Shown here: piece after piece, positions 6,747-59,700 of the stretch
Layout of the letters: each line of letters starts with the position of its first letter
How positions within the stretch are numbered: the stretch's first letter is position 1
Origin: Armatimonadota bacterium
GTDB taxonomy: Bacteria; Armatimonadota; UBA5829; DTJY01
Assembly (NCBI GenBank): GCA_963663705.1
Contig: OY760504.1
Span: forward strand, 2,632,063-2,696,062
DNA: 64,000 nt
Direction: 5' to 3'
The notes under the pieces: model-generated
Databases searched by the model: none
What the model saw: the letters and a program-made list of their open reading frames with translations, nothing else
Told to the model about the DNA's origin: nothing
Program-made: the position numbers and the translations under genes

Positions 6747-7071
6747 ATTTACTGATGTTACGCAGAAATACAGATAACTATTCAGGATCGGGACAATCAT
6801 ATCCGGTCGCACTTCATGGGCTTGTCTCCATACCGGAGGAACGAATATCAGCCTGCAATTTCTTCAATACAAAGAAATTCATGACTCATTATTTCTTGCT
6901 CCGATCATTCAACTCGGTATCATGGCGAAAAGAAGTTGGTGAGTCAGCCAGTATCAGTCCTCTATCGATAAGGGAGTGTTAGTGTTATTGTACACTGCTC
7001 TGGGTAAAGAGGAGAAATGGTCTTGCCTTATAAGCCAAATTATGCAGAATATGGGAAATATTATGATAAAT

Positions 7072-45334: not shown

Positions 45335-45931
45335 TCAGATGGCGGAATTTGAATGATCGCAGATAAAACTAAATGTCTCAACGGTTGGTGGGATTTCATT
45401 CCGGTTTAGCGAGCTTTTATCCAACCTTCCGCCGTGACGTGAGACGAAGAGATAATTATGTCTACATTCGGGCCGGAGTTCCATCCAGTCCTTAATCGCA
45501 TCGTATGCACTGGAGTTAAGAGGAATAAGTCGCATCTTATTTCCCTTCCCCTTCGTCACCTGCATTACGCTATTTTCCAAATCTATGTCTTCCAGCTTGA
45601 GATCGAGCAGTTCCTGCCTGCGGACACCGGTATGTATGAGCACTGACATAATCGCTCTGTTACGGAATGCCTGGTTGATAGATCTGCCCTGCTCGGAAGC
45701 GGAGATCAGAGCTTCCATCTCTACGGTGGTAAGACAAATGGGTACTTTGTATTCCTTCTTTGGTGTAGGGATTCGTCGAAGTGGAGAACGGTCGATATAC
45801 TCCGCATCCACAAGGTAATTCCACATGGATTTCAGGCTGTTAACCTTTCGGCGTATATAGGCCGACTTATAGTCGCTCCCATTCAAGTATGCCAGGTATT
45901 GCCGGATAACGGGAGTGGTGATGGATTCCAT
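45335..45931 (-). pseudogene. Truncated tyrosine recombinase (phage-integrase / XerD-like) lacking the N-terminal ~50 aa and the C-terminal catalytic H-x-x-R...Y region.
   Basis: Core-binding domain VIRQYLAYL...SLKSMWNYL. Catalytic-domain start RAIMSVLIHTGVRRQELLDLKLEDIDLENSVMQVTKGKGNKMRLIPL. Ends in non-homologous sequence before the HxxR and Tyr. Confidence 0.6.
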
Positions 45932-46155
45932 TTCATGCGGAATGCCCCGCTCACCCAGGGCTTATGTGCCTACTCCAAGACCATTTTGCCAACATAATTC
46001 TGTCTGGCCGAGACATAACCCGTTACATAATGTGAAAAAGCGTGGGGTTATGTCTCGGTGAGCAAAAATATTCAGCTACGACAGAACCCCCTGTTATTTT
46101 CCACTGACATCCCACATGATCGATGGCCTAATTCTAGTTTTAGGAGATAGGCACT

Positions 46156-46281
46156 ATGTTATTAACACCATTGGCCGAAGAGTTTTATGCCTACTTGAAG
46201 AATGAACGAGGATCAAGCGAACTGACTATCAGTTCATACAAGTATGATTTTCGCCGATTCTTGAGGTTATATTGGGACTAA
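46156..46281 (+). pseudogene. Isolated N-terminal 41-aa fragment of a tyrosine recombinase, on the strand opposite to the larger fragment.
   Basis: MLLTPLAEEFYAYLKNERGSSELTISSYKYDFRRFLRLYWD* matches the XerD N-terminus (LxxFLxxLxxERgLSxNTLxAYRRDL). RBS AGGAGATAG. Its stop lies inside the direct repeat at 46265. Confidence 0.5.
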
Positions 46282-46990
46282 CCCGACGTTTTTGTTGCGT
46301 ATTACTTTGTGTTGTAGGTACATAACCGTGTAGAATATCAAGTTTGACCCTGGTTGGCAGGACTTGGGCGTGAGTATGATGGCATACATAACAGTCCCAT
46401 GCAAGCATCTTGACCCAGGGCTTTTACATATTAACGGCTTGTAGCAAATTCGTCTAATGATATTATATCTATCACGAGGAAATAATACTACACATATCAA
46501 ACACCACATAAAACCGGTGAGGAGTCTGATATGGAAGAATACGAAAACCTGATTGCACACTTGAAGCTAATCCCTGACATGAGGGCCGAGAGATGCAAGA
46601 AGCACAAACTCATAGATGTGCTGTTCATCGCTTTGTGAACTATTCGTTCAGATGGCGAGGATTCAGTGATATTATCGACTTTGCAACGCGTCGAGAGAAT
46701 GGTTGCGAAAGTATATTGAGCTCCCTTGTGGCATACCATAGTATTACACCTTACGAAGGGTATTTCAAATACTCGATCCAAAGGCCCTTAAGGAAGGATT
46801 GATGAGTTGGATGGAGAGCCTGAGGAGTGCAACTTCGGGGCAAGTGATAGCTCTGGATGTTACGATGAACGAGGATATGAATCGAATCCGAAAAGATAAC
46901 GCCCCGGAGAATCTGGCGGTTATAAGAAGAATAGCCGTAAGTATGGTAAATCAGGGTCGGCCATAGATAACTGTAAACATAATGCAAAAG
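46265..46990 (+). mobile_element. Degenerate ISAs1-family IS remnant: left-end repeat, transposase N-terminus (frameshifted) and C-terminal tail. The DDE core is deleted.
   Basis: 46530-46640 encodes MEEYENLIAHLKLIPDMRAERCKKHKLIDVLFIAL*, an ISAs1 Tnp N-terminus. The next frame continues NYSFRWRGFSDIIDF. 46803-46970 encodes ...VTMNEDMNRIRKDNAPENLAVIRRIAVSMVNQ, an ISAs1 Tnp C-terminus. Confidence 0.55.
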
Positions 46991-47077
46991 CACTGATTTC
47001 CTCTTGACTGGATACCGGCTTTGATGTAAAATGACTAAACGTGATTGATATTTTGAGTAAACGTGAGTTAAAATCCG

Positions 47078-47857
47078 ATGCTTAATTCAACTAGGCAACA
47101 GAAACTTTATGCGCTCCTTCGGCAGCGCGGTGAACTCCGACTGCGTGATGTGATGTCGGAATTGGGGGTTGCGCGGGCGACTGCACAGCGTGACCTCGAT
47201 CAATTGAGCCAACAGCCGGGGGTGCAGCGTACCCATGGTGGGGCAATGCTGGCCGAGACACAAAACGGATTTGCTGCCATTCGTCTGGGCGACCGTCAGC
47301 AAGTCACTTCGGAGGAGAAGAAGCAGATTGCCAGGACGGCGGTTACATTATTCAACGCAGATGCGGCGAGTCTATACATCGATGCTGGAACTACTACCAT
47401 AGCCTTCACCAAGGAGTTGGTTTTGTCTGGATGGCGTCCGGTATGGGTGGTCACGAACTGCTGGCATGTGGCCGAACAGCTGAGCCTTGCCGGGATACGG
47501 CATGAGCTTCTAGGCGGAGAGGTCGATTGCCGAAGTCTGGCTATTTCCGGCCCGACTGCAGAAAACAGCGTGGCCGCATACCATTTTGATTGGGCGATTC
47601 TGTCGGCCGATGCCGTCACGGCGACCGGGTCTGTCAGAGTGGCCCGACCGCCTGAAGCTTCTCTGAAACGTGCGGCGGCATTGGCGAGCACGCAGAAGAT
47701 GCTCCTGGCCGATGCCGGCAAGTTCGGGCGCGATTCGCACGTCGAGGCCCTGAAGTTGGGCGACTTCGACATCTGGGTGACGGAGCGGCAAGACCGCTCC
47801 GTCGAGCAGGTCTGCGCAGACAGCGGCGTGCAGTTGGTTACATCTGCCAACGAATAG
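47078..47857 (+). CDS. DeoR-family transcriptional regulator (HTH plus DeoR C-terminal sugar-phosphate sensor).
   Basis: N-terminal RQQKLYALLRQRGELRLRDVMSELGVARATAQRDLDQL (DeoR HTH). C-terminal DeoR-C fold. Confidence 0.85.
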   Translation: MLNSTRQQKLYALLRQRGELRLRDVMSELGVARATAQRDLDQLSQQPGVQRTHGGAMLAETQNGFAAIRLGDRQQVTSEEKKQIARTAVTLFNADAASLYIDAGTTTIAFTKELVLSGWRPVWVVTNCWHVAEQLSLAGIRHELLGGEVDCRSLAISGPTAENSVAAYHFDWAILSADAVTATGSVRVARPPEASLKRAAALASTQKMLLADAGKFGRDSHVEALKLGDFDIWVTERQDRSVEQVCADSGVQLVTSANE

Positions 47858-47867
47858 AGGAGATGCA

Positions 47868-49289
47868 GTGAAATCGATCTTACTCGGATTGGATATCGGC
47901 ACTACCAAGCTGTGTGCGGTTGCCGTAGAGTCGGAGACCGGCAGACTTGTTGCTGTGGAATCTGCTCCCAATGACGCACACATACCGACAGAGGCTGGCG
48001 GGGCCGAACAAGACCCTGCCGTAGTCATGATGCGCATTCAGGAGGTGGCGCGACGCCTTAGCACACGACCGGAGCTCGATGGGTACTCCATCGACGGTCT
48101 TGGTGTCACAGGGCAGATGCACGGCGTGCTCCTGATAGATGCGGATGGCAGTCCGGTTTCCCCTCTGGTCTCCTGGCAGGATCAGCGTGGTCATCGCAAA
48201 TCCACCAGGTGCGGCCGTACATATGTCGAGGAACTCCGCGAGCGGATTCAAACCGAGGATACAGGATGCGAACCGTCGACAGGTTACGGCGCCGTCACAC
48301 TCCTCCGCCTCAAAGACGAAGACCTGATACCGGCGAACTCCCGTGCGCTTACCATTCATGATTTCGTCGTGATGCAGCTTTGTGATGTAGCCGCCACTGA
48401 TCCGACCGATGCCGCGAGTTGGGGGATTTTCGATGTGCGCGACGGCCAACGGTGGCTGCCATCAGCGTTAGTAAGTTTTCCCTTCATGAGGGATCTACTG
48501 CCAAGCGTTCTCGGTACGGGCACTGTCGCGGGAAGGATAAGTTCGAGTGCAGCACGAGTGACAGGATTTCCTCACGGCTTGCCGGTCGCCGTCGCGTTGG
48601 GAGACAACCAGGCATCGTTTTTGGGGAGTGTTCCTTCCGCCCACGAGTCGCTGCTCCTGAATCTGGGGACGGGCGGGCAGATATCCGTGCCTATCGATCG
48701 GTTTGCTTCACTTCCTTTACTGGAGACACGACCATTACTGCCGGGACTCTGGCTGCTCGTCGGCGCTAGTCTCTGCGGGGGGCGGGCATACCAGATTCTC
48801 GCAGACTTCTTTGCCGATGTCGGACGTGAACTCTTCGGCTGCGATGTCGGCGATGCACTATACGAGCGGATGAACGTGCTTGCGGATGAGGCTACAGAGG
48901 ACTGCGATCACCTGTGCGCCCATACGCTATTTGAGGGTACCCGCAAAGACCCAACCATCCGGGGTGACTTCATCGGCATCAGTTCGCAGAATTTCACTCC
49001 TGCCAATCTGACACGCGCCTGCATTGCAGGCATGGTCGATGAACTGGTCTCCATGTATGCGCAGGCGGAGGATGCCGGAGCGAATATCGGCACCGTCGTC
49101 GGAGCAGGGAATGCTATTCGACGCAATCCCATAGTCCGTTATGAGATTGAGAGACGGCTTTCGATGCCATTGTACCTCTCGTCACGTACCGAGGAGGCTG
49201 CGGTTGGAGCGGCTCTGGTCGGCGGAGTGGCTGCCGGAGTCTATTCTGACTGGCGGATGGCTGTGTCTCACTCGGCCGCAAAAGAATGA
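47868..49289 (+). CDS. FGGY-family carbohydrate kinase, a divergent xylulokinase-like member.
   Basis: GTG start 10 nt after AGGAGA. ILLGLDIGTTKLCAVAVE and GVTGQMHGVLLID motifs. C-terminal GAGNAIRRN. Confidence 0.7.
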   Translation: MKSILLGLDIGTTKLCAVAVESETGRLVAVESAPNDAHIPTEAGGAEQDPAVVMMRIQEVARRLSTRPELDGYSIDGLGVTGQMHGVLLIDADGSPVSPLVSWQDQRGHRKSTRCGRTYVEELRERIQTEDTGCEPSTGYGAVTLLRLKDEDLIPANSRALTIHDFVVMQLCDVAATDPTDAASWGIFDVRDGQRWLPSALVSFPFMRDLLPSVLGTGTVAGRISSSAARVTGFPHGLPVAVALGDNQASFLGSVPSAHESLLLNLGTGGQISVPIDRFASLPLLETRPLLPGLWLLVGASLCGGRAYQILADFFADVGRELFGCDVGDALYERMNVLADEATEDCDHLCAHTLFEGTRKDPTIRGDFIGISSQNFTPANLTRACIAGMVDELVSMYAQAEDAGANIGTVVGAGNAIRRNPIVRYEIERRLSMPLYLSSRTEEAAVGAALVGGVAAGVYSDWRMAVSHSAAKE

Positions 49290-49319
49290 CTTGGTAGATT
49301 ACCGGAAGGAGCTCGGATC

Positions 49320-51758
49320 ATGGTTCGCATCGTTGAGAAAACCGTGGGATTTGACCCAAAACGCCTGGCACAGCAGTTACTCTCTGTGCAGTCGCAGAAT
49401 CAACACACTACACGCCTGGATGGCTGGTTCCTTACTATGGAGATTCGCATGCGGGCGCTCGCGGTGTTGCGCAAGACCGCTACCGATTTGCCGAACATCA
49501 TAGTGCAGGCCAGGCTTTTTGCGGCAGTCTGTGAGCAACTACCTCTCACCATCCGAGACGATGAAGTCTTTGCCGGAACGCAGGACGATGCCTTTGCTCG
49601 TACCTATGCGTTGATCAACCCCGAGTTCAAAGTCGAAACCTTCGCAGGATACTGCGACCCGATGGCGGTCTACGGCGACATCACTTGCGCACCTGAGCTC
49701 GGTTTCACGGCCGAACGTATCAAGGCGGTCCGCGACTTTTGGGCTATGGAGCCGTTTGCCAGTGTACTCAAGGCAGCCTACGCAGAGACTGGTGATGAGT
49801 TGTCTGAGGTTGCATACTTTGTCGAGCAGGTTACCGGTCACACAATCTGCGATTTCCGTCCGGCTCTCCAGAACGGACTGGTGCCGCTCATCGAGGAAGC
49901 GCAGTCCAGAGCCCGGGAAACCAGCGGAAGCCAGAAGGATTTCTATACGGCCGCGGAGATCTCACTCACGGCTGTGCTTGCGCTGGGTGACCGCTATGCG
50001 AGGTTGGCCGCAGATATGGCGAGCGGTGAGACCGATCCGCTCCGCAAACATGAACTCAAACGAATTGCCGAGACATGTGGAAGAGTGCTGCATTCCGGCG
50101 CGAGTTCGCTCTACGATGCCATCCAGGCATTCATGCTTCTGTGGATGGGAATGACCCTCGAACAAGCACCAAATCCCTATGCGTTCAGCGTCGGAAACCT
50201 CGATCGGATTCTGCAGCCCTACTTCGCACAGGACGCAATCGATCGGGAAGTCGCCATCGAACTGACACGCCATTTGCTCGCACTCTTTAACGTCGGAGAC
50301 CGAAACTGGGCGATCAGCCAGAACATCATGGTCGGCGGTCGTGACGAGAACGGCAAAGACCTGACCTGCGATATGACCACCATCGTGCTCGCGGCATTCT
50401 ATCGCAGCAACTACCCGCAGCCGGCACTCTCGGTAAAACTCCATTCGCGAACTCCCGATGAGGTCTATTCCGCACTCGCACCGTTTTTCACCACGCCGGG
50501 GAGTCTGACACCGAGCTTCTTCAATGACGACGTGCTCTTCCCTATTCTTACGAAGAAAGGAATCGCCCGCGAAGACCTGCCTCTGTATTCCATCGCCGGA
50601 TGCCAGGAGCCGTTGATCATGGGCAAGGAATCGGGAAACACTACCAATAGCTGGCTGAATCTTGGGAAGATCCTGGAACTGACCATCCACGGCGGCAAGA
50701 GCGCTATCACGGGGAGGCGGATCGGCCTATCATACGAAGAACTCGGTCTGAATCCCGATGAGCCCGTCAAAGATATGGAGCAGGTCAAGACGGCGTTCTG
50801 GAAGCAGTTGGACCATATGCTGCCGAGAATGGAAAAGGCTGCCAATGCGTGCACTAAGGCGCTCTCTCTCCTCCCGGTGCCGTTCCTCTCGTGCTTCATG
50901 GGAGGGTTTGAGAGCGGTATCGATATGCGGGATAACACCGCTCAGGGGACGAAGTATAATGCATCCGGATGCCTAATTCACGGACTGAGCGTAGTCGCGG
51001 ATAGTCTGTCTGCTATTGCCCATCTTCAGGGAACCGCGCCCGATCAGTTGGCAGATCTACCGAGGGCACTGCTCGCCAAATTCGAGGGATTTGACGCACT
51101 GCGCTCGCGTTGTCTTGCAGCACCCAAGTATGGGAACCGTCTGGGGCTGCCGGAGAAGCTAGCCGCGGAGATCGCCGAGGGAACGTCGAGCCGGGTGACG
51201 GCGTTGACTAACCCTTGGGGAAACCATTTTCTCCCTGACTGGAGCACTCCCAGCACACATTTGCTGTATGGTTACTGGGTCGGCGCTACTCCGGATGGGA
51301 GAATGGCAAGACAGATGCTTGGATACGGCATCGACCCCACGGCAGGTATGGCTACACACGGACTTCCTCCACGTATACTCAGCATGCATGCGCTGCCCTA
51401 CGAGGCATTCCTCGGAGGTTATGCCAGCCACATCGGGTTGGAACCGGCTATGGTCCGAGCCGCCGAAGATGGCAAGGGTTTCGTCGATACAATTCGCGGC
51501 TGCGTCATCGATCCGCTCTTCGGGTTCAACGGCGAGGGTATGAATGGTGGGTATTACGTCTACTTCAACGTCGACTCTGCGGAGCATCTCAGAAAGATAC
51601 TGGCGAACCCGATGGAACTCGTGCCCAGCGGAATCTACATTATGCGCATACACGGGACTTTCGTGAACTTCCTCGATCTCTCACCGGCGATCCAGGAAGA
51701 TATAATCACTCGGCTCGATGAGGAATCGACCAGCTTTTCAAAGACTTGCTTTGCATGA
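49320..51758 (+). CDS. Glycyl radical enzyme (pyruvate formate-lyase fold), eliminase/dehydratase-type, with non-canonical motifs.
   Basis: GRE hallmarks ATPDGRMARQMLGYGIDPTAGMATHG and NASGCLIHGLSVVADSL. Active-site loop SIAGCQEPLIMGKE (Cys428). C-terminal glycyl-radical segment IYIMRIHGTFVNFLDLSPAIQEDIITR aligns to [26 protein letters not shown] (Gly779). Confidence 0.8.
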   Translation: MVRIVEKTVGFDPKRLAQQLLSVQSQNQHTTRLDGWFLTMEIRMRALAVLRKTATDLPNIIVQARLFAAVCEQLPLTIRDDEVFAGTQDDAFARTYALINPEFKVETFAGYCDPMAVYGDITCAPELGFTAERIKAVRDFWAMEPFASVLKAAYAETGDELSEVAYFVEQVTGHTICDFRPALQNGLVPLIEEAQSRARETSGSQKDFYTAAEISLTAVLALGDRYARLAADMASGETDPLRKHELKRIAETCGRVLHSGASSLYDAIQAFMLLWMGMTLEQAPNPYAFSVGNLDRILQPYFAQDAIDREVAIELTRHLLALFNVGDRNWAISQNIMVGGRDENGKDLTCDMTTIVLAAFYRSNYPQPALSVKLHSRTPDEVYSALAPFFTTPGSLTPSFFNDDVLFPILTKKGIAREDLPLYSIAGCQEPLIMGKESGNTTNSWLNLGKILELTIHGGKSAITGRRIGLSYEELGLNPDEPVKDMEQVKTAFWKQLDHMLPRMEKAANACTKALSLLPVPFLSCFMGGFESGIDMRDNTAQGTKYNASGCLIHGLSVVADSLSAIAHLQGTAPDQLADLPRALLAKFEGFDALRSRCLAAPKYGNRLGLPEKLAAEIAEGTSSRVTALTNPWGNHFLPDWSTPSTHLLYGYWVGATPDGRMARQMLGYGIDPTAGMATHGLPPRILSMHALPYEAFLGGYASHIGLEPAMVRAAEDGKGFVDTIRGCVIDPLFGFNGEGMNGGYYVYFNVDSAEHLRKILANPMELVPSGIYIMRIHGTFVNFLDLSPAIQEDIITRLDEESTSFSKTCFA

Positions 51759-52648
51759 GTGACATCGCTGTTACCATATTCGATATAGGTTTCACCTATA
51801 ACATCGACGGCCCGGGACAACGGATGGTCGTGTACTTCAAGGGCTGCAATCTCCGCTGTCCCTGGTGCGCGTCGCCGGAGTCTATCGCTGCCGCTTCGGA
51901 AGTCCTGCTGTATCCTGACCGCGCACCCTCTCAGGTATCGCTGATCGACGCCTGTCCCTACGGTGCAGTGAGCGCGATAGGCGGAGAAGTATTGCGTGAT
52001 ACGGACAGATGCCGATTATGCGAACTGCATCCGTGTACCGATTCCGGCACACCTGCCTTTGAGCTGTGCGGCCGAACGGTTTCGGTGAGTGAGATTATCA
52101 GTCAAGCCGAGGAGTACCGGCCATTCTTTGGAAGCAATGGGGGAATAACGATCGGTGGAGGGGAGTCGACCTGTCAGTTTCAGGCTCTCGAAGGGATTCT
52201 GGCTGAACTCCACAAACGCTCTATCGATACGGCTTTGGAGACAAACGGAACACATCTCAGGTTGCCGGAGATTTTCCCACTGCTGGACATGCTGCTGATC
52301 GATCTCAAGCATCCCTTATCCGAGCAGTGCAGAGAGATAGTCGGTCTCGGAAACGAGGTAACTCTGGCCAATATCGCCGCCAGGTGGAAACACGGTGGCG
52401 ATATGGTGGTACGCATACCTCTTGTTCCTGGATACAATTCTGATGAGGCCGTTCTCTACGAATTCGGTAAGGTCCTGGCATCGATTGGGCCGTTGTGCGT
52501 TGAGATATTGCCTTTTCACCGACGAGGGGAAATAAAGTGGCGGTCACTTGGGCTTAGAATGCCTGCCGAATCAGCGAAGGAACCCTCCCGGCATTTGCTA
52601 GGCCAGGCTTATGATATTCTACAGAGTTATGGATTACATGTGAAATGA
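51755..52648 (+). CDS. Glycyl-radical-enzyme activating enzyme (radical SAM).
   Basis: CxxxCxxC motif GCNLRCPWC. SAM-binding GGITIGGGES. Cys-rich insert CPYGAVSA...CRLCELHPC. Its ATG overlaps the GRE stop as ATGA, indicating translational coupling. Confidence 0.8.
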   Translation: MSDIAVTIFDIGFTYNIDGPGQRMVVYFKGCNLRCPWCASPESIAAASEVLLYPDRAPSQVSLIDACPYGAVSAIGGEVLRDTDRCRLCELHPCTDSGTPAFELCGRTVSVSEIISQAEEYRPFFGSNGGITIGGGESTCQFQALEGILAELHKRSIDTALETNGTHLRLPEIFPLLDMLLIDLKHPLSEQCREIVGLGNEVTLANIAARWKHGGDMVVRIPLVPGYNSDEAVLYEFGKVLASIGPLCVEILPFHRRGEIKWRSLGLRMPAESAKEPSRHLLGQAYDILQSYGLHVK

Positions 52649-52721: not shown

Positions 52722-53534
52722 ATGTACCAGATTAGACAGTTCTTTTTTCCATACCCGATAGATACCCCGGAGCTGAGTATACATGCGGTCGGAATACGGG
52801 AAGCGGTGCCTCCCACGGTTACCCACAGGCCCGGCAGCACAGGGGACTGGCTCTTCATGTTCCTCTATGAGCCGAATTTCGTGGACGGCTATGGTGAGCA
52901 GCCGGGGAATACGCTGATAGTCTGGGATCCCGAGCACGGGCATTGTTTTGGCCGGCAGGATATTCCGTGGACACACTCCTGGCTTCATTGCGATGGCAGT
53001 TGCTTGGCTCCGATGCTCGCAGAGTGCGCCATTCCATTGAACGAGCCCTTGCGGATAAGTGCTCCTGAGATGATGGATCATTACCTGGTGCAGATACACC
53101 GGGAGGCTGCATTCTTTTCGTCCCCGGACCCACGCATAGCACGAAACATCCTGCAAAACTGGATCTATGAGATCGGCCGAGATATCCACGGAAGAGACGA
53201 AGCGCCGGCTGTACCCCCTGAGTACCTGGCTGCCAAGCGCCATATTTCCGAGCATTTTGACGAACCGACGAGGCTTGCTGACCTCGCTGAAATCGCCCAT
53301 GTCTCCGTGCCCCATTTCTGCAACCTGTTCAAGCGCTATTTTAATCAATCGCCGATAAGTATGCTGATAGAACACAGGATGCGCTATGCTGCTTATCTGC
53401 TGAGAGATGTTAGCTTATCGATCACTGAGATAGCTGTCATGGTCGGGTATCGGGACCTCTATCAGTTCTCCAAATTGTTTAGTAACCGCTATCACATGTC
53501 GCCTCGGCTCATGCGTGAGCGGCTCATGAGATGA
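52722..53534 (+). CDS. AraC-family transcriptional regulator.
   Basis: C-terminal HTH pair LADLAEIAHVSVPHFCNLFKRYFNQSPISMLIEHRMRYAAYLLRDVSLSITEIAVMVGYRDLYQFSKLFSNRYHMSPRLMRER. Confidence 0.8.
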   Translation: MYQIRQFFFPYPIDTPELSIHAVGIREAVPPTVTHRPGSTGDWLFMFLYEPNFVDGYGEQPGNTLIVWDPEHGHCFGRQDIPWTHSWLHCDGSCLAPMLAECAIPLNEPLRISAPEMMDHYLVQIHREAAFFSSPDPRIARNILQNWIYEIGRDIHGRDEAPAVPPEYLAAKRHISEHFDEPTRLADLAEIAHVSVPHFCNLFKRYFNQSPISMLIEHRMRYAAYLLRDVSLSITEIAVMVGYRDLYQFSKLFSNRYHMSPRLMRERLMR

Positions 53535-53610: not shown

Positions 53611-54726
53611 CTATATCACTTCGAGGTAGTCTCTGTCCGGTAGCACCGGGAACGCACCGTGTGGCTCGGACTGATACCAGTATGCGACGGACGATATATC
53701 ATCCCGCAAAGGGAGATACCGGCCTTCACTATGCCAGCCCAGACCTTGTACTGTCAGTTTCAGGTCTTGCTTGAAGCGGATCGGATCCATGATGTGGAAG
53801 CGATACATGAGGTGACGATCGCCGGCTTTCCCAAATGATGTTCCTACAGGATAACCCAGGAACGGGGCCGAGAAGTTTTCGCCGAAGCCCCACGCACCGC
53901 CGATGTAGTCCTCTGTGCCGGTTGCGACGATTGTTGGAAACTCCCCGTCACCATCCAGGAAGAACTTGGTCTCTCCTTCACCCCACCAGCCGTTGTTGTT
54001 CTGCTGCCAGGCGAGGGATGTGCCGACGTAGTGCCCCTGGCCGTGCACACCATCGAGGATGGTATAGACTTCCTTGTAAGGGAGCGGGTTTGTACGTCGG
54101 AACTGAGCGTGAAAACGAGCATCCTCGTCTGTCACCTCAGTTATGGCGTAGGTGATGTTGTACACGATCTCCTCGTCCTTTACGGGATTTCTGTTTTCGA
54201 TGGTTATACGGGCGTGCTTGCCGAAAGGCATGGGGAAATAACAGTTCATTGCTCTGGTAGGATTGACATTTATGGGCAACGACAGGATGGGAGTTTGTAT
54301 TCCAAGGCCGTTACAGAAGAAGTCGGCTATGGGAGATTCGACACTGGGAGTCTCTTCGTTATCCCAGTACATACGCAGTATCAGGTCGCGCATAAACACC
54401 GGCTCCTGACTAAACGTGAGGAAGAGGTGCTGAATGCAGCCGGGACCGTCTACGTCCATTATTGTGGTGGTTGTTCCGGCAGGGAATATTGGGTGTATGC
54501 GAACCTTCCACCCGCGTCCCAAATCACGAGCCGCGTGTTCAGCAATATCCTTATCCGTGAACCATGTCTGCCCTATACGCTCAACATCGGGTGGCGGCGT
54601 TGTCGTAATTTCCGCCATGCATGCGCGTCCCTTCTCTCCGTATACGTTCTCGGCGTTGATCGATCGTGTCTCCGCGTTGGAGAGTCGAAATATGTTACCC
54701 AACCCCATTCCCATTCCTGAAAACAT
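53611..54726 (-). CDS. DUF2961 / GH172-like protein, a putative glycoside hydrolase.
   Basis: Motifs RMYWDNEETPSVESPIADFFCNG, YFPMPF and GEGETKFFLDGDGEFPTIVATGTEDYIGGAWGF resemble the DUF2961 family. Recalled from memory, not searched. Confidence 0.4.
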   Translation of the reverse strand: MFSGMGMGLGNIFRLSNAETRSINAENVYGEKGRACMAEITTTPPPDVERIGQTWFTDKDIAEHAARDLGRGWKVRIHPIFPAGTTTTIMDVDGPGCIQHLFLTFSQEPVFMRDLILRMYWDNEETPSVESPIADFFCNGLGIQTPILSLPINVNPTRAMNCYFPMPFGKHARITIENRNPVKDEEIVYNITYAITEVTDEDARFHAQFRRTNPLPYKEVYTILDGVHGQGHYVGTSLAWQQNNNGWWGEGETKFFLDGDGEFPTIVATGTEDYIGGAWGFGENFSAPFLGYPVGTSFGKAGDRHLMYRFHIMDPIRFKQDLKLTVQGLGWHSEGRYLPLRDDISSVAYWYQSEPHGAFPVLPDRDYLEVI

Positions 54727-54789
54727 GTTTAAAGCTCCTGCAAGTTAGTGTTACTGACAATATTGTACCTCTTACATTGAGCCTTTGGA

Positions 54790-54936
54790 ATGGCGGATGT
54801 TAAGCAGTATTTGTGGAATCTTAAGGTTGTATGTGGAAGTGTTGCCCAAGTTGCGAGAGATCTTGGGGTAAATGCAGAGGCTCTACGCCGCTGGGTAAGG
54901 CAAGCCGGATGGCGGCGTGGGCATTACTCCAGATGA
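54790..54936 (+). pseudogene. IS3-family transposase OrfA N-terminal HTH fragment (48 aa).
   Basis: MADVKQYLWNLKVVCGSVAQVARDLGVNAEALRRWVRQAGWRRGHYSR* contains the IS3/IS911 OrfA HTH SVAxVARxLGVNxxxLxRWV. Confidence 0.5.
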
Positions 54937-55099
54937 GCCTGGGGACGCCTAAAACACGAAGAGCAGAGAGCACGCAGAGATGCCACTTTCCACTGTGATC
55001 TTGCCCTGAATTTTCGGGCACCGATTACCTATGCCGCATACGCGGCTAGTTGGAACTGAAACTCGAACTCAGCCGGGGTTGGAGTAGGCACATGAGCCG

Positions 55100-55133
55100 G
55101 GTTATATTGGGACAACCCGACGTTATTGTTACC
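55100..55133 (+). repeat. Direct-repeat copy of the motif at 46265-46299. Patchy homology extends about 300 bp downstream (agggcttttRcatattaac at 46411 and 55393).
   Basis: ggttatattgggacaacccgacgttattgtt versus ggttatattgggactaacccgacgtttttgtt, about 30/33 identical. Confidence 0.55.
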
Positions 55134-55920
55134 TTTTGTGCTGGTACTACAGGACAGATTCCAGGTTATTTTCTCTGTTGTCATCTTTGTGTAGTCGATA
55201 ACCATAAAATTCTGCCACGTTTTTTGATGCAATGCAACGCCAACTAAAATGCTGAACTGATCCATGCTTTGCATCACGTTGCGTGCACTCGATATTGCGA
55301 TTCCGGAAGGCGAAGATACGAAACTCGCCTGATAGTATCACCACTAAGCAGACATCTTCCAGTGCTAACCTTGAGGCAATTCGCATCGTTGCAGGGCTTT
55401 TGCATATTAACTCTTTATTATCGCTTACCACCTGGCAATTCATAAGCGGCATCCGCTGATATAACCTGGAGATACGTCGATCTACTGCGGATGATTAATG
55501 CCTGCTGGGCAATTATTAGCTGTATGCCTACAGGTAACTGACCTCGGCCGCTGCAAAGCAGGCATTTTTTGCGTTAAAATTGCGTTTTTTGGAAGAGAAT
55601 CTGTACTTATCAATATGGGTGTATCCTCAAAATGAAAAGGCCCCGACAAAACGGTTTGTTGACAAATCTGGCAATTGCCGGTATACTGCATCCAATGCGC
55701 TGAAACGTTTCGCGCACGTCGATTTTGCGTCGGCTGTAGATGTGCATCAGCTTCGAGGAGTGTCCAACGATTTTGGAGATGGTCGTCGTAGATTGCAGCT
55801 CAGGGTAAAGATAATCCGCATCCCATATTCCATGCAATGCGAAATAACCATCTGGCTACCAGACCGGAAGATCACTGGATTATATATCATCGCATATCCA
55901 AAGAAGAAACTTAAGACGGT

Positions 55921-56246
55921 TTGATGAGTAATCTGGCTGACTGTCTGCACAAGTGGCTTGACGACGAGTGTCCGACCAGCGCTCTGCTTGCCCGTGAGTT
56001 GGGAATTCATATGCCTTACCAGCTGGAAGTGGTTGGATTTGACAATCTGAGGGTCGGCAAGTCATGCATCCCGCCGTTTTCTACCACGAACCTGATTTCA
56101 CCTATGCCGGAAAGATCGCCGCCAGAATGGCTATCAAGCAGGTAGAATGCATTCAAACAACCGTTCCTATCATACGGGTGCTTCCGGTTCCGCTGAAGGT
56201 ACCAAGCTCAGACGAGGTCGAAAGAATTACCGAATGCGTGCGATAA
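55921..56246 (+). pseudogene. Frameshifted C-terminal remnant of a LacI-type sugar-binding domain, probably a decayed GntR/LacI-hybrid regulator paralogue.
   Basis: LEVVGFDNLRVGKSCIPPFSTTNLISPMPERS and, in a second frame, YHEPDFTYAGKIAARMAIKQVECIQTTVPIIRVLPVPLKVPSSDE. These parallel MVGFDNLPHGRIFRPTFHTTGPDFARAGQIAAETAFEAIDKG...ILPVPII of the intact regulators. Confidence 0.45.
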
Positions 56247-56534
56247 TCTCTCCAGTGGCTTCTAGTCCAGCGGATATGTTTTCGTGCAGTTCTGAATATG
56301 TTGCTGGAAGACAAGACGACCGATCTGCTTAAGCTTCTCACGCAGCTCCAGCTTTATTCGTGAGCCTTTGCAAAAGTTGGGAATGGTCTTGTAGCTTAGA
56401 TTACTATAATTGCTATTCAATGACTGCTATACAGAGGTTGAGTTTCCTGCCGCACCACAAAACGCCACTTGGTTGTAATGCAGGCAGCAAAAATCCTTTT
56501 GTAAGGACGGCCCATTGCAACTTGGAGAAATAAG

Positions 56535-57866
56535 ATGATTAACATCCGATCGAGCAGGCGGTGGCACCTGAGACTATGCGTATTGGTTGCAACCTGCTTG
56601 GGGCTTTTGCTCTTTACCAGTGGATGTTCTAGGCCTCCGAAAGAAGCTAAGAATACGGTTCATTTGCGCTTCAGCGTCCTTGGCTGCAAGCAGGAATCAG
56701 ACTTGGCGGAGGCTTTTGCCAGGGGGTTTGAGAGAACTCATCCCAATATTAAAATAGATATAGAACCGGTGGCTGGGATGAGCTATGATATGAAGCTTAT
56801 CATGCAATCGGCTGCTGGGACTGTTGCGGACGTTCTCTTTCTTTCTGACTCGCTTGTCCCGGAGTTTTCGAAATTCCATGTCGTCCGCGATCTTTCCCAG
56901 GATATAAAAAGAGACAAAACCTTTGACATCAACAGCATATATCCGCAGATGATGGTTACCGGAATGGATGATCAACGTCATGTTTATATGATTCCCAGGG
57001 AACTGAGTGTTGTTTCGCTTTTCTATAACCGCACACTGTTTAAGCGGGCGCATGTTCCCTGCCCAAATGAAAACTGGACCTATGAGGACTTCACCAAAGC
57101 TGCCAAAAAGCTAACTATCAAGGATGCGGACGGGCATATCAAACAGTATGGTTTTTTCGGATCTTACGCCTGGCCACAGATTTACGTCTCTTGGATTGAA
57201 GCCAATGGTGGACACGCAATGACAAACGGCAAGTCTACCTTGTCTTCTCCGGAATCGATGAAGGCATTGAACTCGCTTCTGGACATGGTGTGCAAAGATA
57301 AGTGTGCAATGTCTCCCAATACTGCCCGAGCGAATCCGCAGATAGACCCGTTTGTGGGCGGACAGGCCGCAATGACAGCGCAGGTCTTTTCGCAGGTTCC
57401 GCAATTCCGCACCACTATGAAGCAATTCGACTGGGATGTGGAGATGATGCCTATTGGGACCGTCAGCCGTGTGATAAGCATCGGTTCGGCCGGCTATGGG
57501 ATTTATGCCAGGACTAAGCATCCGAAAGAGGCTTGGGAGTTTCTCAAGTATATTGAGAGCAAGCAAGGGCAGAGGTTACTGGGCAACGCCGGGAGCGGAA
57601 CCCCCGCTGTCAAATCCCTGGCGTATGACAAATGCTGGCGCAAACCGGGTCTTCCGCCCAAAAATCTGGACGCTTTTATCAAGGGCGTCAAATATGGAAT
57701 CCAGTGGAATAAGATTAGTCCGTTTTCTTCGCCGGAGATATCCGACAGTGTCGCGGAAGCTTTTGAAAAAGTCTTTGTCGGCATGGAGTCGCCGGAACAG
57801 GCTTTTAAGAAAGCTGATGAGAAGATAAATATCCTTCTAGCCAAGGAGCGTGCTGGTGATGATTAA
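56535..57866 (+). CDS. ABC transporter substrate-binding lipoprotein (carbohydrate, family-1 solute-binding protein).
   Basis: Lipoprotein signal LLLFTSGCS. SBP_bac_1-like sequence throughout. Confidence 0.8.
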   Translation: MINIRSSRRWHLRLCVLVATCLGLLLFTSGCSRPPKEAKNTVHLRFSVLGCKQESDLAEAFARGFERTHPNIKIDIEPVAGMSYDMKLIMQSAAGTVADVLFLSDSLVPEFSKFHVVRDLSQDIKRDKTFDINSIYPQMMVTGMDDQRHVYMIPRELSVVSLFYNRTLFKRAHVPCPNENWTYEDFTKAAKKLTIKDADGHIKQYGFFGSYAWPQIYVSWIEANGGHAMTNGKSTLSSPESMKALNSLLDMVCKDKCAMSPNTARANPQIDPFVGGQAAMTAQVFSQVPQFRTTMKQFDWDVEMMPIGTVSRVISIGSAGYGIYARTKHPKEAWEFLKYIESKQGQRLLGNAGSGTPAVKSLAYDKCWRKPGLPPKNLDAFIKGVKYGIQWNKISPFSSPEISDSVAEAFEKVFVGMESPEQAFKKADEKINILLAKERAGDD

Positions 57867-58761: not shown

Positions 58762-58764
58762 ATA

Positions 58765-59610: not shown

Positions 59611-59700
59611 TTCCATTTGGCCTATCCCGGTTCTCCGGACACCTGCTTAAGATGTGTGCACGCATTAACCTTTATTCCATACCTGAAAGGCGACAATAAC

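What the first reader, a model, noticed from the sequence alone, without database searches (positions are those of the whole stretch)
47078..52648. DeoR regulator, FGGY kinase, glycyl radical enzyme and activase operon: a candidate anaerobic sugar-derived eliminase system of unassigned specificity
Four co-directional, tightly spaced genes: a DeoR repressor, an FGGY sugar kinase (GTG start 10 nt after the DeoR stop, behind AGGAGA), an 812-aa GRE, and its radical-SAM activase, which overlaps the GRE stop as ATGA.

The GRE has the full fold signatures (ATPDGR...GIDP, NASGC...VADSL) and an eliminase-type Cys loop with a glutamate (GCQEP). That loop type is characteristic of dehydratase/lyase GREs such as glycerol and 1,2-propanediol dehydratases, CutC and HypD, rather than PFL.

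DeoR regulators sense sugar phosphates (FucR and GlpR are DeoR-type). FGGY kinases phosphorylate pentuloses, fuculose, rhamnulose and glycerol. The same window carries two FucI-like isomerases and two GH78 rhamnosidases.

Hypothesis: the GRE processes a deoxyhexose-derived or polyol-derived product, for example a 1,2-diol coming from the rhamnose/fucose route, in a B12-independent way. No BMC shell or aldehyde dehydrogenase genes accompany it here, and its motifs deviate from the known diol dehydratases, so the substrate may be new. This is the leading candidate for an undescribed system in the window.
Basis: partly seen in the sequence, partly recalled or inferred. Interest (0 to 1): 0.8.

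Follow-up and report, generated by a model that had tools for sequence, protein, structure and literature searches.

The report
Sugar-linked glycyl radical enzyme with kinase
This operon encodes an oxygen-sensitive radical enzyme of an unstudied but widespread family that always travels with its own sugar kinase. It probably lets anaerobes, including many gut bacteria, break down a sugar-like compound whose identity is still unknown.

Summary
The four genes are real and lie where stated: DeoR 47078-47857, FGGY kinase 47868-49289, GRE 49320-51758, activase 51755-52648 (ATGA overlap).

The 812-aa protein is a genuine Cys-x-Glu (eliminase/isomerase-type) glycyl radical enzyme, with Cys428, Glu430, His174 and Gly779. 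Its AlphaFold model superposes on glycerol, propanediol and hydroxyproline dehydratases (TM about 0.8).

It is not a member of any characterised GRE. Identity is at most 27%, every curated equivalog model scores far below its cut-off, and the small-diol pocket residues of glycerol dehydratase are replaced.

It belongs to a tight, unnamed family (GCQEP, NTTNSW, RIHGTF) with at least 574 matching loci in a collection holding one genome per species, across about eight phyla and including many gut Bacillota.

The main new result is the conserved partner set. Besides the activase, an FGGY kinase lies nearby in 52 of 60 loci that have enough flanking sequence. In most loci it is one orthologous 'sedoheptulokinase-like' subtype. 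A 39%-identical sister clade is also kinase-linked.

Accessory neighbours point to mannose/fructose-type sugars and polyols: a PMI-like isomerase, monosaccharide transporters, GH32/GH172/GH38, polyol dehydrogenases and FSA. They do not point to 1,2-propanediol. No recurrent aldehyde-dehydrogenase or microcompartment-shell neighbour was seen.

Best reading: a kinase-coupled relative, in logic, of the YbiW/PflD 'radical glycolysis' enzymes. The substrate is unknown.

The parts
47004..47074 (+). Putative promoter/operator region of the operon. Two sigma-70-like sites (TTGACT-17-TAAAAT and TTGATA-18-TAAAAT) and a direct repeat TAAACGTGA at 47036 and 47058, 22 bp apart.
   Evidence: These are consensus matches only. 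The 9-mer occurs 3 times in the window against 0.34 expected. Function is inferred, not shown.
47078..47857 (+). DeoR-family transcriptional regulator, 259 aa, first gene of the operon.
   Evidence: Pfam HTH_DeoR plus DeoRC. No NCBIfam equivalog cut-off is reached. Orthologues at 61% and 51% identity sit in the same modules in L010 and L004.
47868..49289 (+). FGGY carbohydrate kinase of the 'sedoheptulokinase-like' subfamily, 473 aa, GTG start.
   Evidence: Pfam FGGY_N and FGGY_C. Best NCBIfam hit is XylB at 147 bits against 380; GlpK, FucK and RbsK-type models score far lower. Best PDB hit is 73 bits. Relatives are named sedoheptulokinase by NCBI and JGI. Orthologues at 34-47% identity lie next to family GREs in other phyla, and HMM scores separate this subtype from the other FGGY ORFs.
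49320..51758 (+). Glycyl radical enzyme, 812 aa, Cys-x-Glu type. Cys428, Glu430, His174 and Gly779 (RIHG).
51755..52648 (+). Radical-SAM GRE activase, 297 aa. Has CNLRCPWC plus a reduced insert with a single 4-Cys motif.
   Evidence: TIGR02494 at 199.7 bits, above the 174.35 cut-off. ATGA overlap. Cys pattern.
52722..53534 (+). AraC-family regulator, 73 nt downstream on the same strand. Possible second regulator. Membership of the system is uncertain.
   Evidence: Pfam HTH_18 and HTH_AraC. No terminator-like site lies between it and the activase. AraC-type regulators flank the module in three other loci.
53611..54726 (-). GH172 (DUF2961) glycoside hydrolase, convergent to the operon. Possibly supplies the sugar. 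Association is tentative.
   Evidence: Pfam DUF2961, E 2e-89, listed as GH172 domains. A GH172 gene is the first gene of the co-directional module in L004 (27% identity).

Best explanation
This is a dedicated anaerobic catabolic module for a neutral, monosaccharide-sized carbohydrate derivative. The substrate is most likely a polyol or anhydro-alditol of the fructose/mannose (D-arabino) family.

Shown by sequence and model:
- The activase carries the CX3CX2C radical-SAM site.
- The GRE has the radical glycine (Gly779), the thiyl cysteine (Cys428), the Cys-x-Glu glutamate (Glu430) and the His (His174) that aligns with the general acid of glycerol dehydratase.

Inferred mechanism:
1. The activase installs a radical on Gly779, and the radical is relayed to Cys428.
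2. The thiyl radical abstracts the hydrogen from a carbinol carbon of the sugar.
3. Glu430 deprotonates that hydroxyl, giving a ketyl radical.
4. The C-O bond on the neighbouring carbon (a hydroxyl or a ring ether, protonated by His174) breaks.
5. Hydrogen return gives a deoxy-ketose.

Inferred pathway, with the order favoured about 60:40:
- The co-inherited sedoheptulokinase-like FGGY kinase phosphorylates the terminal hydroxyl of that ketose.
- The phosphate ester is the likely DeoR effector.
- It enters central metabolism through an aldolase or isomerase. This is encoded elsewhere in this genome, but beside the module in other genomes (PMI-like isomerase, fructose-6-phosphate aldolase).

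The logic matches the YbiW/PflD 'radical glycolysis' route, with an importer plus kinase in place of a PTS. The exact substrate is not known.
For: GRE identity and class:
- PFL-like, E 2e-110.
- Full-length alignment to glycerol dehydratase, with Cys, Glu, His and Gly in register.
- AlphaFold model with pLDDT 85.5 and pTM 0.91.
- Foldseek TM 0.76-0.81 to all eliminase/isomerase GREs.
- Invariant G-C-Q-E-P-L, H174 and R-I-H-G in 43 family members.

Distinct family:
- Family representatives score 760-835 bits, sister clades 336-476, and everything else at most 266, which includes glycerol dehydratase at 226.
- All NCBIfam equivalogs are far below cut-off.

Kinase coupling:
- The activase-GRE-FGGY trio is present in 7 of 7 loci from different phyla that carry precomputed annotation.
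- An FGGY gene lies within five genes in 69 of 83 non-redundant loci, and in 52 of 60 loci with at least 3.5 kb on both sides.
- 62-66 of the FGGY ORFs are one orthologous subtype.
- A 39%-identical sister GRE also sits next to an FGGY kinase and an activase.

Sugar-sized neutral substrate:
- CUT2 binding proteins resembling ribose-binding protein and an XylE-like MFS porter.
- ROK, GntR-PBP and DeoR regulators.
- The pocket residues that close the glycerol site are replaced by Ser, Thr, Ser and Asn.

Fructose/mannose/polyol theme:
- GH32 polysaccharide-utilisation loci, GH172, GH38 and GH130.
- PMI-like isomerase in 24 of 83 loci, including the nearest relative L010.
- A DalD-like polyol dehydrogenase and a psicose-epimerase-like gene.
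- Zn-dependent alcohol dehydrogenase and FSA.

Precedent: YbiW and PflD cleave the C1-O5 bond of anhydrohexitol 6-phosphates using the same Cys-x-Glu logic (PMC13450708).

Order (GRE before kinase):
- The kinase subfamily is XylB/sedoheptulokinase-like, that is, ketose kinases.
- Stand-alone copies exist without a GRE.
- The family has Asn440 where YbiW and the sister clades have Arg.
- The usual gene order is activase-GRE-kinase-isomerase.
Against: - No substrate was tested and nothing here identifies it.
- A deoxy-ketose product does not explain why a PMI-type aldose-ketose isomerase is the commonest accessory gene. That gene would fit a normal hexose 6-phosphate better.
- FSA is adjacent in only 2-3 loci.
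- DeoR regulators and a conserved basic residue at position 327/328 would equally fit a phosphorylated GRE substrate, meaning kinase first.
- The strictly conserved segment 644-668, which should line the active site, is modelled with low confidence.
- Model coordinates could not be inspected, so pocket statements rest on sequence alignment plus remembered structural roles of glycerol dehydratase residues.
- The primary YbiW/PflD paper (Ma et al., JACS 2024) could not be read. I cannot exclude that it mentions kinase-linked variants.
Confidence: 0.55

Rival explanations
1. Isofunctional with YbiW/PflD. The FGGY kinase first makes 1,5-anhydroglucitol or 1,5-anhydromannitol 6-phosphate. The GRE then opens the ring to 1-deoxyfructose 6-phosphate, which an FSA-type aldolase cleaves.
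For: - Same Cys-x-Glu plus His catalytic set.
- A DeoR regulator suggests a phosphorylated intermediate.
- FSA with a Zn-dependent alcohol dehydrogenase sits beside family members in Blautia and Dorea loci, recalling fsaB-gldA-pflD in E. coli.
- The substrates are ubiquitous in food and the gut (PMC12441222).
Against: - Only 25-27% identity to YbiW and PflD, no closer than to any other eliminase.
- The PflD-type NCBIfam model scores 187 against 1109.
- FSA is adjacent in 2-3 of 83 loci.
- The Arg that YbiW and the sister clades carry at position 440 is Asn here.
- FGGY kinases are not known to phosphorylate pyranoid anhydro-alditols (established knowledge of the family).
- The PMI-like partner is unexplained.
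Confidence: 0.15
2. One reading: a B12-independent dehydratase for a small 1,2-diol (1,2-propanediol from rhamnose/fucose, or glycerol).
For: - The best sequence and fold matches are glycerol dehydratase and propanediol dehydratase.
- RhaA and RhaD follow the module in L061 and L068, and RhaA plus RhaB in L040.
- GH78-like and FucI-like genes exist elsewhere in the window.
Against: - Identity is only 24-30%.
- Of the glycerol dehydratase residues, only His164 and the Cys-x-Glu motif are kept. His281, Ser282, Tyr339, Asp447 and Tyr640 are all replaced.
- No aldehyde dehydrogenase, phosphotransacylase or microcompartment-shell gene turned up among recurrent neighbours in the loci examined.
- A conserved sugar kinase, sugar transporters and sugar-sensing regulators have no role in diol dehydration.
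- The kinase is not GlpK (73 bits against 590).
Confidence: 0.04
3. A seven-carbon sugar module. The kinase is a true sedoheptulokinase, and the GRE converts a heptitol or anhydro-heptulose into a heptulose. In some genomes the PMI-like enzyme acts as a heptose 7-phosphate isomerase.
For: - Relatives of the kinase are named sedoheptulokinase by two annotation sources.
- The product, sedoheptulose 7-phosphate, would need no further dedicated enzyme. That fits the minimal three-gene loci.
Against: - The names are similarity-based, and no curated model supports them.
- GRE elimination chemistry yields deoxy products, not a fully hydroxylated heptulose (inference from the known mechanism, PMC13450708).
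- The neighbouring glycoside hydrolases act on fructosides and mannosides.
Confidence: 0.07
4. An ordinary pyruvate or 2-ketoacid formate-lyase, as the public annotations say ('pyruvate formate lyase family protein', 'formate C-acetyltransferase').
For: Names given by NCBI and JGI to homologues. PFL-like Pfam domain.
Against: - There is a single Cys followed by Gln-Glu instead of the Cys-Cys pair of PFL.
- The PFL equivalog TIGR01255 scores 44.5 against 994.
- E. coli PFL scores only 51 bits.
- The gene context is sugar-related.
Confidence: 0.01

Closest known systems
YbiW and PflD of E. coli (1,5-anhydroglucitol-6-P and 1,5-anhydromannitol-6-P C-O lyases; 'radical glycolysis', Ma et al. 2024 as summarised in PMC13450708 and PMC12441222)
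   Same: - A GRE with the Cys-x-Glu motif and the conserved His, acting within sugar metabolism.
- The substrate or product is phosphorylated by a dedicated neighbouring function.
- An adjacent activase.
- FSA plus an alcohol dehydrogenase sit next to the module in a few related loci.
   Different: - 25-27% identity.
- Phosphorylation by a soluble FGGY kinase together with ABC or MFS import, instead of a PTS.
- FSA is usually not adjacent.
- A PMI-like isomerase is a frequent partner.
- Different pocket residues, for example Asn440 in place of the YbiW Arg.
- The Gly loop reads RIHG instead of RVAG.
B12-independent glycerol dehydratase DhaB1 of Clostridium butyricum (PDB 1R8W/1R9D)
   Same: - Best sequence match (226 bits) and best fold match (TM 0.81).
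- Cys433, Glu435 and His164 are conserved as Cys428, Glu430 and His174.
- The Gly loop aligns.
   Different: - 24-30% identity.
- His281, Ser282, Tyr339, Trp445, Asp447 and Tyr640 are replaced by Tyr, Ala, Ser, Asn, Thr and Ser.
- A 10-residue deletion before the WAISQN strand.
- An extra N-terminal RLDGWF region.
- Sugar kinase context instead of dha genes.
GRE 1,2-propanediol dehydratase (Roseburia inulinivorans, PDB 5I2A/5I2G; 9RCO series)
   Same: Same fold and catalytic motif.
   Different: - 21-24% identity.
- Known examples sit in microcompartment loci with an aldehyde dehydrogenase (PMC13450708). None of that is here or in the related loci.
Sedoheptulokinase (SHPK/CARKL-type FGGY kinases)
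   Same: The kinase and its orthologues are assigned to this subfamily by NCBI and JGI annotation. It shares the XylB-like motifs GQMHG and WQD.
   Different: - No activity is known for any bacterial member linked to a GRE.
- The assignment is by similarity only.
- In a few Lachnospiraceae loci a XylB-equivalog kinase takes its place.

Membership tests
Glycyl radical enzyme superfamily (PFL-like branch) | PFL-like ten-stranded barrel fold | tested here: met
   Pfam PF02901 at 370.7 bits. AlphaFold model with pTM 0.91. Foldseek TM 0.76-0.81 to more than 40 GRE structures.
Glycyl radical enzyme superfamily (PFL-like branch) | C-terminal Gly loop (RVxG-type) carrying the radical glycine | tested here: met
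   R776-I-H-G779 aligns with RVAG of glycerol dehydratase, YbiW and PflD and is invariant in 43 relatives. Caveat: Pfam Gly_radical scores only 17.9 bits against 22.2.
Glycyl radical enzyme superfamily (PFL-like branch) | Catalytic Cys on the Cys loop | tested here: met
   Cys428 in the invariant motif AGCQEPL.
Glycyl radical enzyme superfamily (PFL-like branch) | Cognate radical-SAM activase encoded alongside | tested here: met
   TIGR02494 at 199.7 bits, above 174.35. CNLRCPWC motif. ATGA overlap with the GRE stop.
Glycyl radical enzyme superfamily (PFL-like branch) | Formation of a stable glycyl radical (EPR) | not testable with these tools
   Requires anaerobic biochemistry.
GRE 1,2-eliminase / isomerase class | Cys-x-Glu motif on the Cys loop | tested here: met
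   C428-Q-E430, invariant. Defining motif as described in PMC13450708.
B12-independent glycerol dehydratase | Glycerol-binding residues (His164, His281/Ser282, Tyr339, Asp447, Tyr640) | tested here: not met
   Only His164 is kept. The others are Tyr, Ala, Ser, Thr and Ser in the phmmer alignment. The residue roles come from my knowledge of PDB 1R9D and.
PFL2/glycerol dehydratase subfamily (TIGR01774) | Score above the curated cut-off | tested here: not met
   273.1 bits against 678.2.
GRE 1,2-propanediol dehydratase | Microcompartment shell and aldehyde dehydrogenase neighbours | tested here: not met
   None identified among the window ORFs annotated, in seven annotated related loci, or among the recurrent neighbour clusters of 83 loci. 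Caveat: my ORF calling used a 90-aa minimum, so small shell proteins could have been missed.
CutC, HypD, HpfG/HpsG, IAD, HPAD (curated equivalogs) | NCBIfam equivalog score above cut-off | tested here: not met
   CutC 170.8 against 1050. HypD 179.3 against 1100. HpfG 191.1 against 1000. HpsG 176.7 against 1000. IAD 120.3 against 1100. HPAD 72.9 against 1150.
YbiW/PflD anhydrohexitol-6-phosphate C-O lyases | Close sequence relationship to YbiW or PflD | tested here: not met
   25-27% identity. PRK09983 scores 186.9 against 1109. PDB PflD 171 bits and YbiW 133 bits, against at least 760 bits within the family.
YbiW/PflD anhydrohexitol-6-phosphate C-O lyases | PTS plus FSA aldolase neighbourhood | tested here: not met
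   No PTS or FSA in the window. FSA is present in 2-3 of 83 related loci.
YbiW/PflD anhydrohexitol-6-phosphate C-O lyases | Ring-opening of AG6P or AM6P to 1-deoxyfructose 6-phosphate | not testable with these tools
   Needs an enzyme assay.
Pyruvate formate-lyase | Adjacent Cys-Cys pair and the PFL equivalog score | tested here: not met
   G-C-Q-E instead of C-C. TIGR01255 scores 44.5 against 994.2.
Aminoacyl radical enzymes (non-Gly GRE homologues) | Radical glycine replaced by Ala, Ser or Thr | tested here: not met
   Gly779 is retained and invariant.
FGGY carbohydrate kinases | FGGY_N and FGGY_C domains | tested here: met
   127.9 and 38.1 bits, both above cut-off.
Named FGGY specificities (XylB, GlpK, GntK, FucK, AraB, LsrK) | NCBIfam equivalog cut-off | tested here: not met
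   XylB 147 against 380. GlpK 73 against 590. GntK 69 against 649. FucK 57 against 471. No RhaB match.
Sedoheptulokinase | Phosphorylation of sedoheptulose at C7 | not testable with these tools
   Only similarity-based names on relatives are available.
DeoR-family regulators | N-terminal HTH_DeoR and C-terminal DeoRC sensor domain | tested here: met
   47.6 and 112.8 bits. No specific equivalog is reached.

The most novel reading that the evidence does not exclude
The family catalyses a GRE reaction not yet described: radical C-O cleavage (dehydration or ring-opening) of an unphosphorylated, common plant- or diet-derived hexose-family polyol or anhydro-sugar. The deoxy-ketose product is captured by a dedicated ketose kinase. 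Together with its 34-39%-identical sister clades, it would define a whole superclade of FGGY-kinase-coupled 'radical sugar catabolism' GREs. That would be a second, PTS-independent branch of radical glycolysis, present in at least about 570 species including many uncultured gut Clostridia, Victivallales and Akkermansiaceae.
Probability: 0.45. Interest if true: 0.8.

Novelty: new variant of a known kind. Interest (0 to 1): 0.62.

Why it matters
Only a few dozen of the thousands of GRE sequences have known functions. Each newly assigned one (CutC, HypD, IslA, YbiW/PflD) has revealed a gut or environmental pathway with consequences for host or ecosystem chemistry.

This family has four features that make it worth pursuing:
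- It is large, with at least 574 matching loci in a one-genome-per-species collection.
- It is phylogenetically broad.
- It is enriched in human and animal gut MAGs.
- It has a clean, testable genetic signature (activase, GRE and a dedicated kinase), and cultured carriers are available for experiments.

Assigning its substrate would show how strict anaerobes use a sugar-like compound that lacks a non-radical route. It would also tell us whether 'radical glycolysis' is a general strategy rather than an E. coli curiosity. For annotation, it shows that labelling hundreds of these genes 'pyruvate formate lyase family protein' is misleading.

Tried and rejected
- **Literature.** Ten full-text searches (GRE with FGGY, kinase, phosphate dehydratase, GH172, sedoheptulose, anhydroglucitol and others) found no paper on a kinase-linked GRE. 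The 2026 review lists none. The primary YbiW/PflD paper is not held.
- **DeoC lead.** The 'DeoC' aldolase near the Oscillospiraceae locus looked like a deoxyribose lead. It is LsrF of an adjacent AI-2 (lsr) operon, so I dropped it.
- **Stand-alone kinases.** Contexts of sedoheptulokinase-like kinases in large genomes were uninformative about substrate. They showed only that the kinase can exist without a GRE.
- **Partner genes in the window.** I looked for PMI-like and FSA genes in the window and found none.
- **RNA elements.** Rfam finds no riboswitch or other RNA family in 45-56.6 kb.
- **Horizontal transfer by composition.** Evidence is weak: operon GC is 0.56-0.59 against 0.51 for the window, but GH123 is also 0.56.
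- **Phylogeny.** A maximum-likelihood tree with all characterised GREs was not built, because their sequences other than the E. coli ones could not be brought into the sandbox. I used three substitutes: the bit-score hierarchy against 1.84 billion representatives, PDB scores and curated HMM cut-offs.
- **Pocket inspection.** Inspecting the pocket in the model was impossible because coordinates are not returned.
- **Other GRE types.** A non-glycine aminoacyl radical enzyme and PFL were both considered and rejected on motifs.

Full report
**1. The observation**

The region holds four co-directional ORFs, exactly as described.
- The DeoR ORF (47078-47857) ends in TAG. It is followed by AGGAGA, four bases, then the GTG of the kinase at 47868.
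- The GRE ATG at 49320 sits behind GGAAGGAG.
- The GRE stop TGA overlaps the activase ATG at 51755 as ATGA. The identical public contig carries the same four gene calls, with a 297-aa activase.

Domain assignments are unambiguous:
- DeoR: HTH_DeoR plus DeoRC.
- Kinase: FGGY_N plus FGGY_C.
- GRE: PFL-like, 370 bits.
- Activase: Radical_SAM in Pfam, and the GRE-activase model TIGR02494 above its curated cut-off.

A promoter-like pair of sites and a 9-bp direct repeat precede DeoR. No Rfam element is present.

**2. Is it a real glycyl radical enzyme, and of what type?**

The 812-aa protein aligns over residues 54-800 with the B12-independent glycerol dehydratase (E 8e-66). The catalytic residues are in register:
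- AGC428-Q-E430-P against IGCVEP.
- H174 against His164.
- MRIHG779TF against VRVAGYS.

An AlphaFold model built on 43 relatives has pLDDT 85.5 and pTM 0.91. The glycine lies between two short strands. Foldseek places the model at TM 0.76-0.81 from essentially every solved eliminase or isomerase GRE, at 19-24% identity.

By the motif rule of the 2026 review, it is therefore a Cys-x-Glu GRE, meaning the 1,2-eliminase/isomerase class. It is not a PFL, because it lacks the Cys-Cys pair and scores 44.5 against 994 on the PFL equivalog.

It stays below threshold (17.9 against 22.2 bits) and does not reach the glycine. The loop reads RIHG, with an unusual His before the Gly.

**3. It is not a member of any characterised clade**

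- Every curated NCBIfam equivalog (HpfG, HpsG, PflD-type, HypD, CutC, IAD, HPAD, PFL) scores 45-191 bits against cut-offs of about 1000. Even the broad PFL2/glycerol dehydratase subfamily model is missed, at 273 against 678.
- In an exhaustive HMMER scan of 1.84 billion cluster representatives, full-length family members score 760-835 bits (48-52% identity). Sister clades score 336-476 bits (34-39%). Everything else scores at most 266 bits. Glycerol dehydratase, the best characterised match, scores 226 bits.
- By the same alignment, the glycerol dehydratase residues that I recall as closing the pocket around glycerol are replaced:

| Glycerol dehydratase | This protein |
|---|---|
| His281 | Tyr287 |
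| Ser282 | Ala288 |
| Tyr339 | Ser333 |
| Trp445 | Asn440 |
| Asp447 | Thr442 |
| Tyr640 | Ser642 |

These replacements are invariant or nearly invariant in the family. Bulky residues giving way to small hydroxyl or amide side chains argues, by inference, for a larger polyhydroxylated ligand.

**4. The family and its constant partners**

Homologues at 49-75% identity occur in:
- Armatimonadota (the nearest relatives, so the window is probably from that phylum)
- Sumerlaeota
- Verrucomicrobiota (Akkermansiaceae, Victivallis/Lentisphaeria)
- Bacteroidota
- Spirochaetota
- Anaerolineae
- Phycisphaerae
- one Propionivibrio
- very many Bacillota: Oscillospiraceae, Acutalibacteraceae, Lachnospiraceae, Blautia, Dorea, Christensenella and Ruminococcus

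Many of these come from human, ruminant or termite guts. All carry only generic names such as 'pyruvate formate lyase family protein'.

In seven loci from different phyla with precomputed annotation, the GRE is always flanked by an activase and an FGGY kinase. In two of them nothing else sugar-related lies nearby.

My own ORF calling and clustering on 83 non-redundant loci gave these counts:

| Neighbour within five genes | All 83 loci | The 60 loci with at least 3.5 kb on both sides |
|---|---|---|
| Activase | 72 | 54 |
| FGGY kinase | 69 | 52 |

The kinases form one orthologous group across phyla. They share 34-47% identity and the motifs TGQMHG, WQD, GDNQASFLGS and EEAA. An HMM separates 62-66 of the 77 FGGY ORFs from the rest.

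Relatives of the window's kinase are named sedoheptulokinase by NCBI and JGI. The kinase reaches no curated specificity model and only 73 bits against any solved kinase.

A few Lachnospiraceae loci use a XylB-equivalog kinase instead. A 39%-identical sister GRE also sits between an ABC transporter and an FGGY kinase plus activase.

The sister clades share the hallmarks GWF, PNPYAFS, WAxSQN (with the same 10-residue deletion), AGCQEP and R[IV]HG. The GRE-kinase coupling is therefore the defining, inherited feature of a whole superclade.

**5. What the accessory genes say**

Recurrent but non-universal neighbours:
- A PMI-type cupin isomerase in 24 loci, usually in the order activase-GRE-kinase-PMI. 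It is present in the nearest Armatimonadota relative L010. It scores 81-95 bits on manA (cut-off 116) and shows metal-ligand-like motif conservation against B. subtilis PMI.
- ROK regulators (15 loci), GntR-HTH/periplasmic-binding-protein hybrid regulators (17) and DeoR regulators (5).
- CUT2 ABC transporters whose binding proteins resemble ribose-binding protein, or an XylE-like MFS porter.

Rarer neighbours:
- GH32 fructan polysaccharide-utilisation loci in Bacteroidota, where the module occupies the place of the usual fructokinase and transporter.
- GH172 as the first gene of the module in L004, and convergent to the operon in the window.
- GH38 alpha-mannosidases and GH130.
- A DalD-like polyol dehydrogenase with a psicose-epimerase-like gene.
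- Sorbitol-dehydrogenase-like Zn-dependent alcohol dehydrogenase with fructose-6-phosphate aldolase in Blautia and Dorea.
- RhaA and RhaD behind the module in two loci, and RhaA plus RhaB in a third.

No recurrent microcompartment-shell, aldehyde-dehydrogenase or phosphotransacylase neighbour was seen. The common denominator is a free, monosaccharide-sized sugar or polyol of the fructose/mannose/mannitol family.

Within the window itself:
- The surroundings are a glycan-degrading gene set: GH4, GH116, GH20, GH78-like, GH123, GH2, GH38, GH95-like, GH172 and a CUT1 ABC transporter.
- The FucI-like gene is 40 kb away and has its own kinase.

**6. Mechanism**

Shown: the catalytic apparatus of an eliminase/isomerase GRE, a cognate activase, and a co-inherited kinase.

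Inferred: the catalytic and pathway steps set out under best explanation. The thiyl radical at Cys428 takes a hydrogen from a carbinol carbon, a ketyl radical forms, and the C-O bond on the neighbouring carbon breaks. That bond can belong to a hydroxyl (dehydration, as in glycerol dehydratase) or a ring ether (isomerisation, as in YbiW and PflD). The product is a deoxy-ketose.

I favour GRE first, then kinase, at about 60:40. The reasons:
- The kinase belongs to the ketose-kinase branch.
- The kinase also exists without a GRE.
- The usual gene order is activase-GRE-kinase-isomerase.
- This family has Asn where YbiW and the sister clades have Arg at position 440.

The opposite order is favoured by the DeoR regulator and by the conserved basic residue at position 327/328.

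What this model does not explain is the frequent PMI-type isomerase, which would fit a normal hexose 6-phosphate better than a deoxy-ketose phosphate. I leave this as an open contradiction.

**7. Comparison with the known, and novelty**

In logic, the system works most like the YbiW/PflD radical glycolysis route. It is not a member of that clade, nor of the glycerol dehydratase, propanediol dehydratase, CutC, HypD, HpfG/HpsG or PFL clades; see the membership table.

Within the searchable literature, no GRE coupled to an FGGY kinase has been described, and the 2026 review lists none. I therefore rate it a new variant of a known kind: a real, large, uncharacterised GRE family with a new conserved partner and an unknown substrate. 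It is not an ordinary diol dehydratase, and it is not a new enzyme class.

The protein does align across the Gly and Cys loops, and it does not fall inside a characterised clade.

**8. Verdict**

- Interest is 0.62. A GRE specialist would not be astonished by another eliminase-type clade. However, the size of the family, its gut prevalence, the strict kinase coupling extending to sister clades, and the availability of cultured carriers make an open question directly testable: which sugars need radical chemistry anaerobically.

Noticed in passing
window 45335-45931 (- strand), 45932-47077, 46265-46303 / 55100-55137 and 46416-46435 / 55392-55411: A truncated tyrosine recombinase (198 aa, matching XerC profile positions 42-220 of 295) abuts a 1.1-kb AT-rich gap (GC 0.43) just upstream of the operon. 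Two short direct repeats, unique in the window, bracket the 8.8-kb block DeoR-kinase-GRE-activase-AraC-GH172. One is 38 nt with one indel; the other is 20 nt with one mismatch. The block may be an inserted islet. GC evidence is weak.
   Followed up: partly
window 47036-47044 and 47058-47066 (also 54411-54419): A direct repeat TAAACGTGA, 22 bp apart, overlaps the two promoter-like sites in front of DeoR. It is a candidate operator. A third copy lies inside the GH172 gene. The nearest relative L010 has a different palindrome (TTCTGATGCA...TGCATCAGAA) at the same place.
   Followed up: partly
window 51755-52648; activases in L055, L060, L061, L081: The activase has only one 4-Cys motif (C-x18-C-x2-C-x4-C) in the insert, where, as I recall, eliminase activases usually carry two ferredoxin-like clusters. 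Several family activases in Acutalibacteraceae and related Clostridia lack the insert altogether, like PFL-AE.
   Followed up: partly
L065 4530-8851 (Dorea MAG): A second, different uncharacterised GRE (780 aa, Gly loop RVGGFS, Cys loop GCGEF, 25-27% identity to YbiW/PflD, 22% to the window GRE) sits beside the family member. It has its own activase. The locus also carries two XylB-equivalog FGGY kinases, one Zn-dependent alcohol dehydrogenase and one FSA. This is another kinase-linked GRE of unknown function.
   Followed up: partly
P0251 (representative of a 35%-identical sister cluster): This relative has GDELP in place of GCQEP, so it lacks the catalytic Cys, and RVPG in place of RIHG. It is possibly an inactive or repurposed GRE homologue.
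   Followed up: no
window 49320-51758, residues 97-110 and 644-668: Two strictly conserved segments (LINPxFxVETFxGY, and PSTHLLYGYWVGATPDGR with its flank) are modelled with pLDDT below 50 although the rest of the model is confident. They may be mobile active-site or gating elements, or a consequence of the shallow alignment.
   Followed up: no
window 6976-8547 and 8592-10091: A FucI-like isomerase (only the C-terminal Fucose_iso_C domain is detected) is followed by a second FGGY kinase with strong domain matches. This looks like a separate ketose pathway unrelated to the GRE operon.
   Followed up: partly
window 2348-45329 and 53611-61878: The window is dense in glycoside hydrolases: GH4, GH116, GH20, GH78-like, GH123, GH2, GH38-like, DUF5703/GH95-like, GH172 and a GH116-like gene. 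It also holds a ceramidase-like gene (5123-6433), an MFS transporter, a CUT1 ABC transporter and two AraC regulators. This is the genome of a complex-glycan degrader.
   Followed up: partly
L003 14921-22385 (Oscillospiraceae PP1C4): A likely lsr (autoinducer-2) locus lies immediately next to the GRE module: an LsrF thiolase equivalog at 409 bits, a CUT2 ABC transporter, a SorC-type (Sugar-bind domain) regulator and an FGGY kinase. Only LsrF was tested against a curated model. It is unrelated to the GRE but easy to mistake for part of the module.
   Followed up: yes
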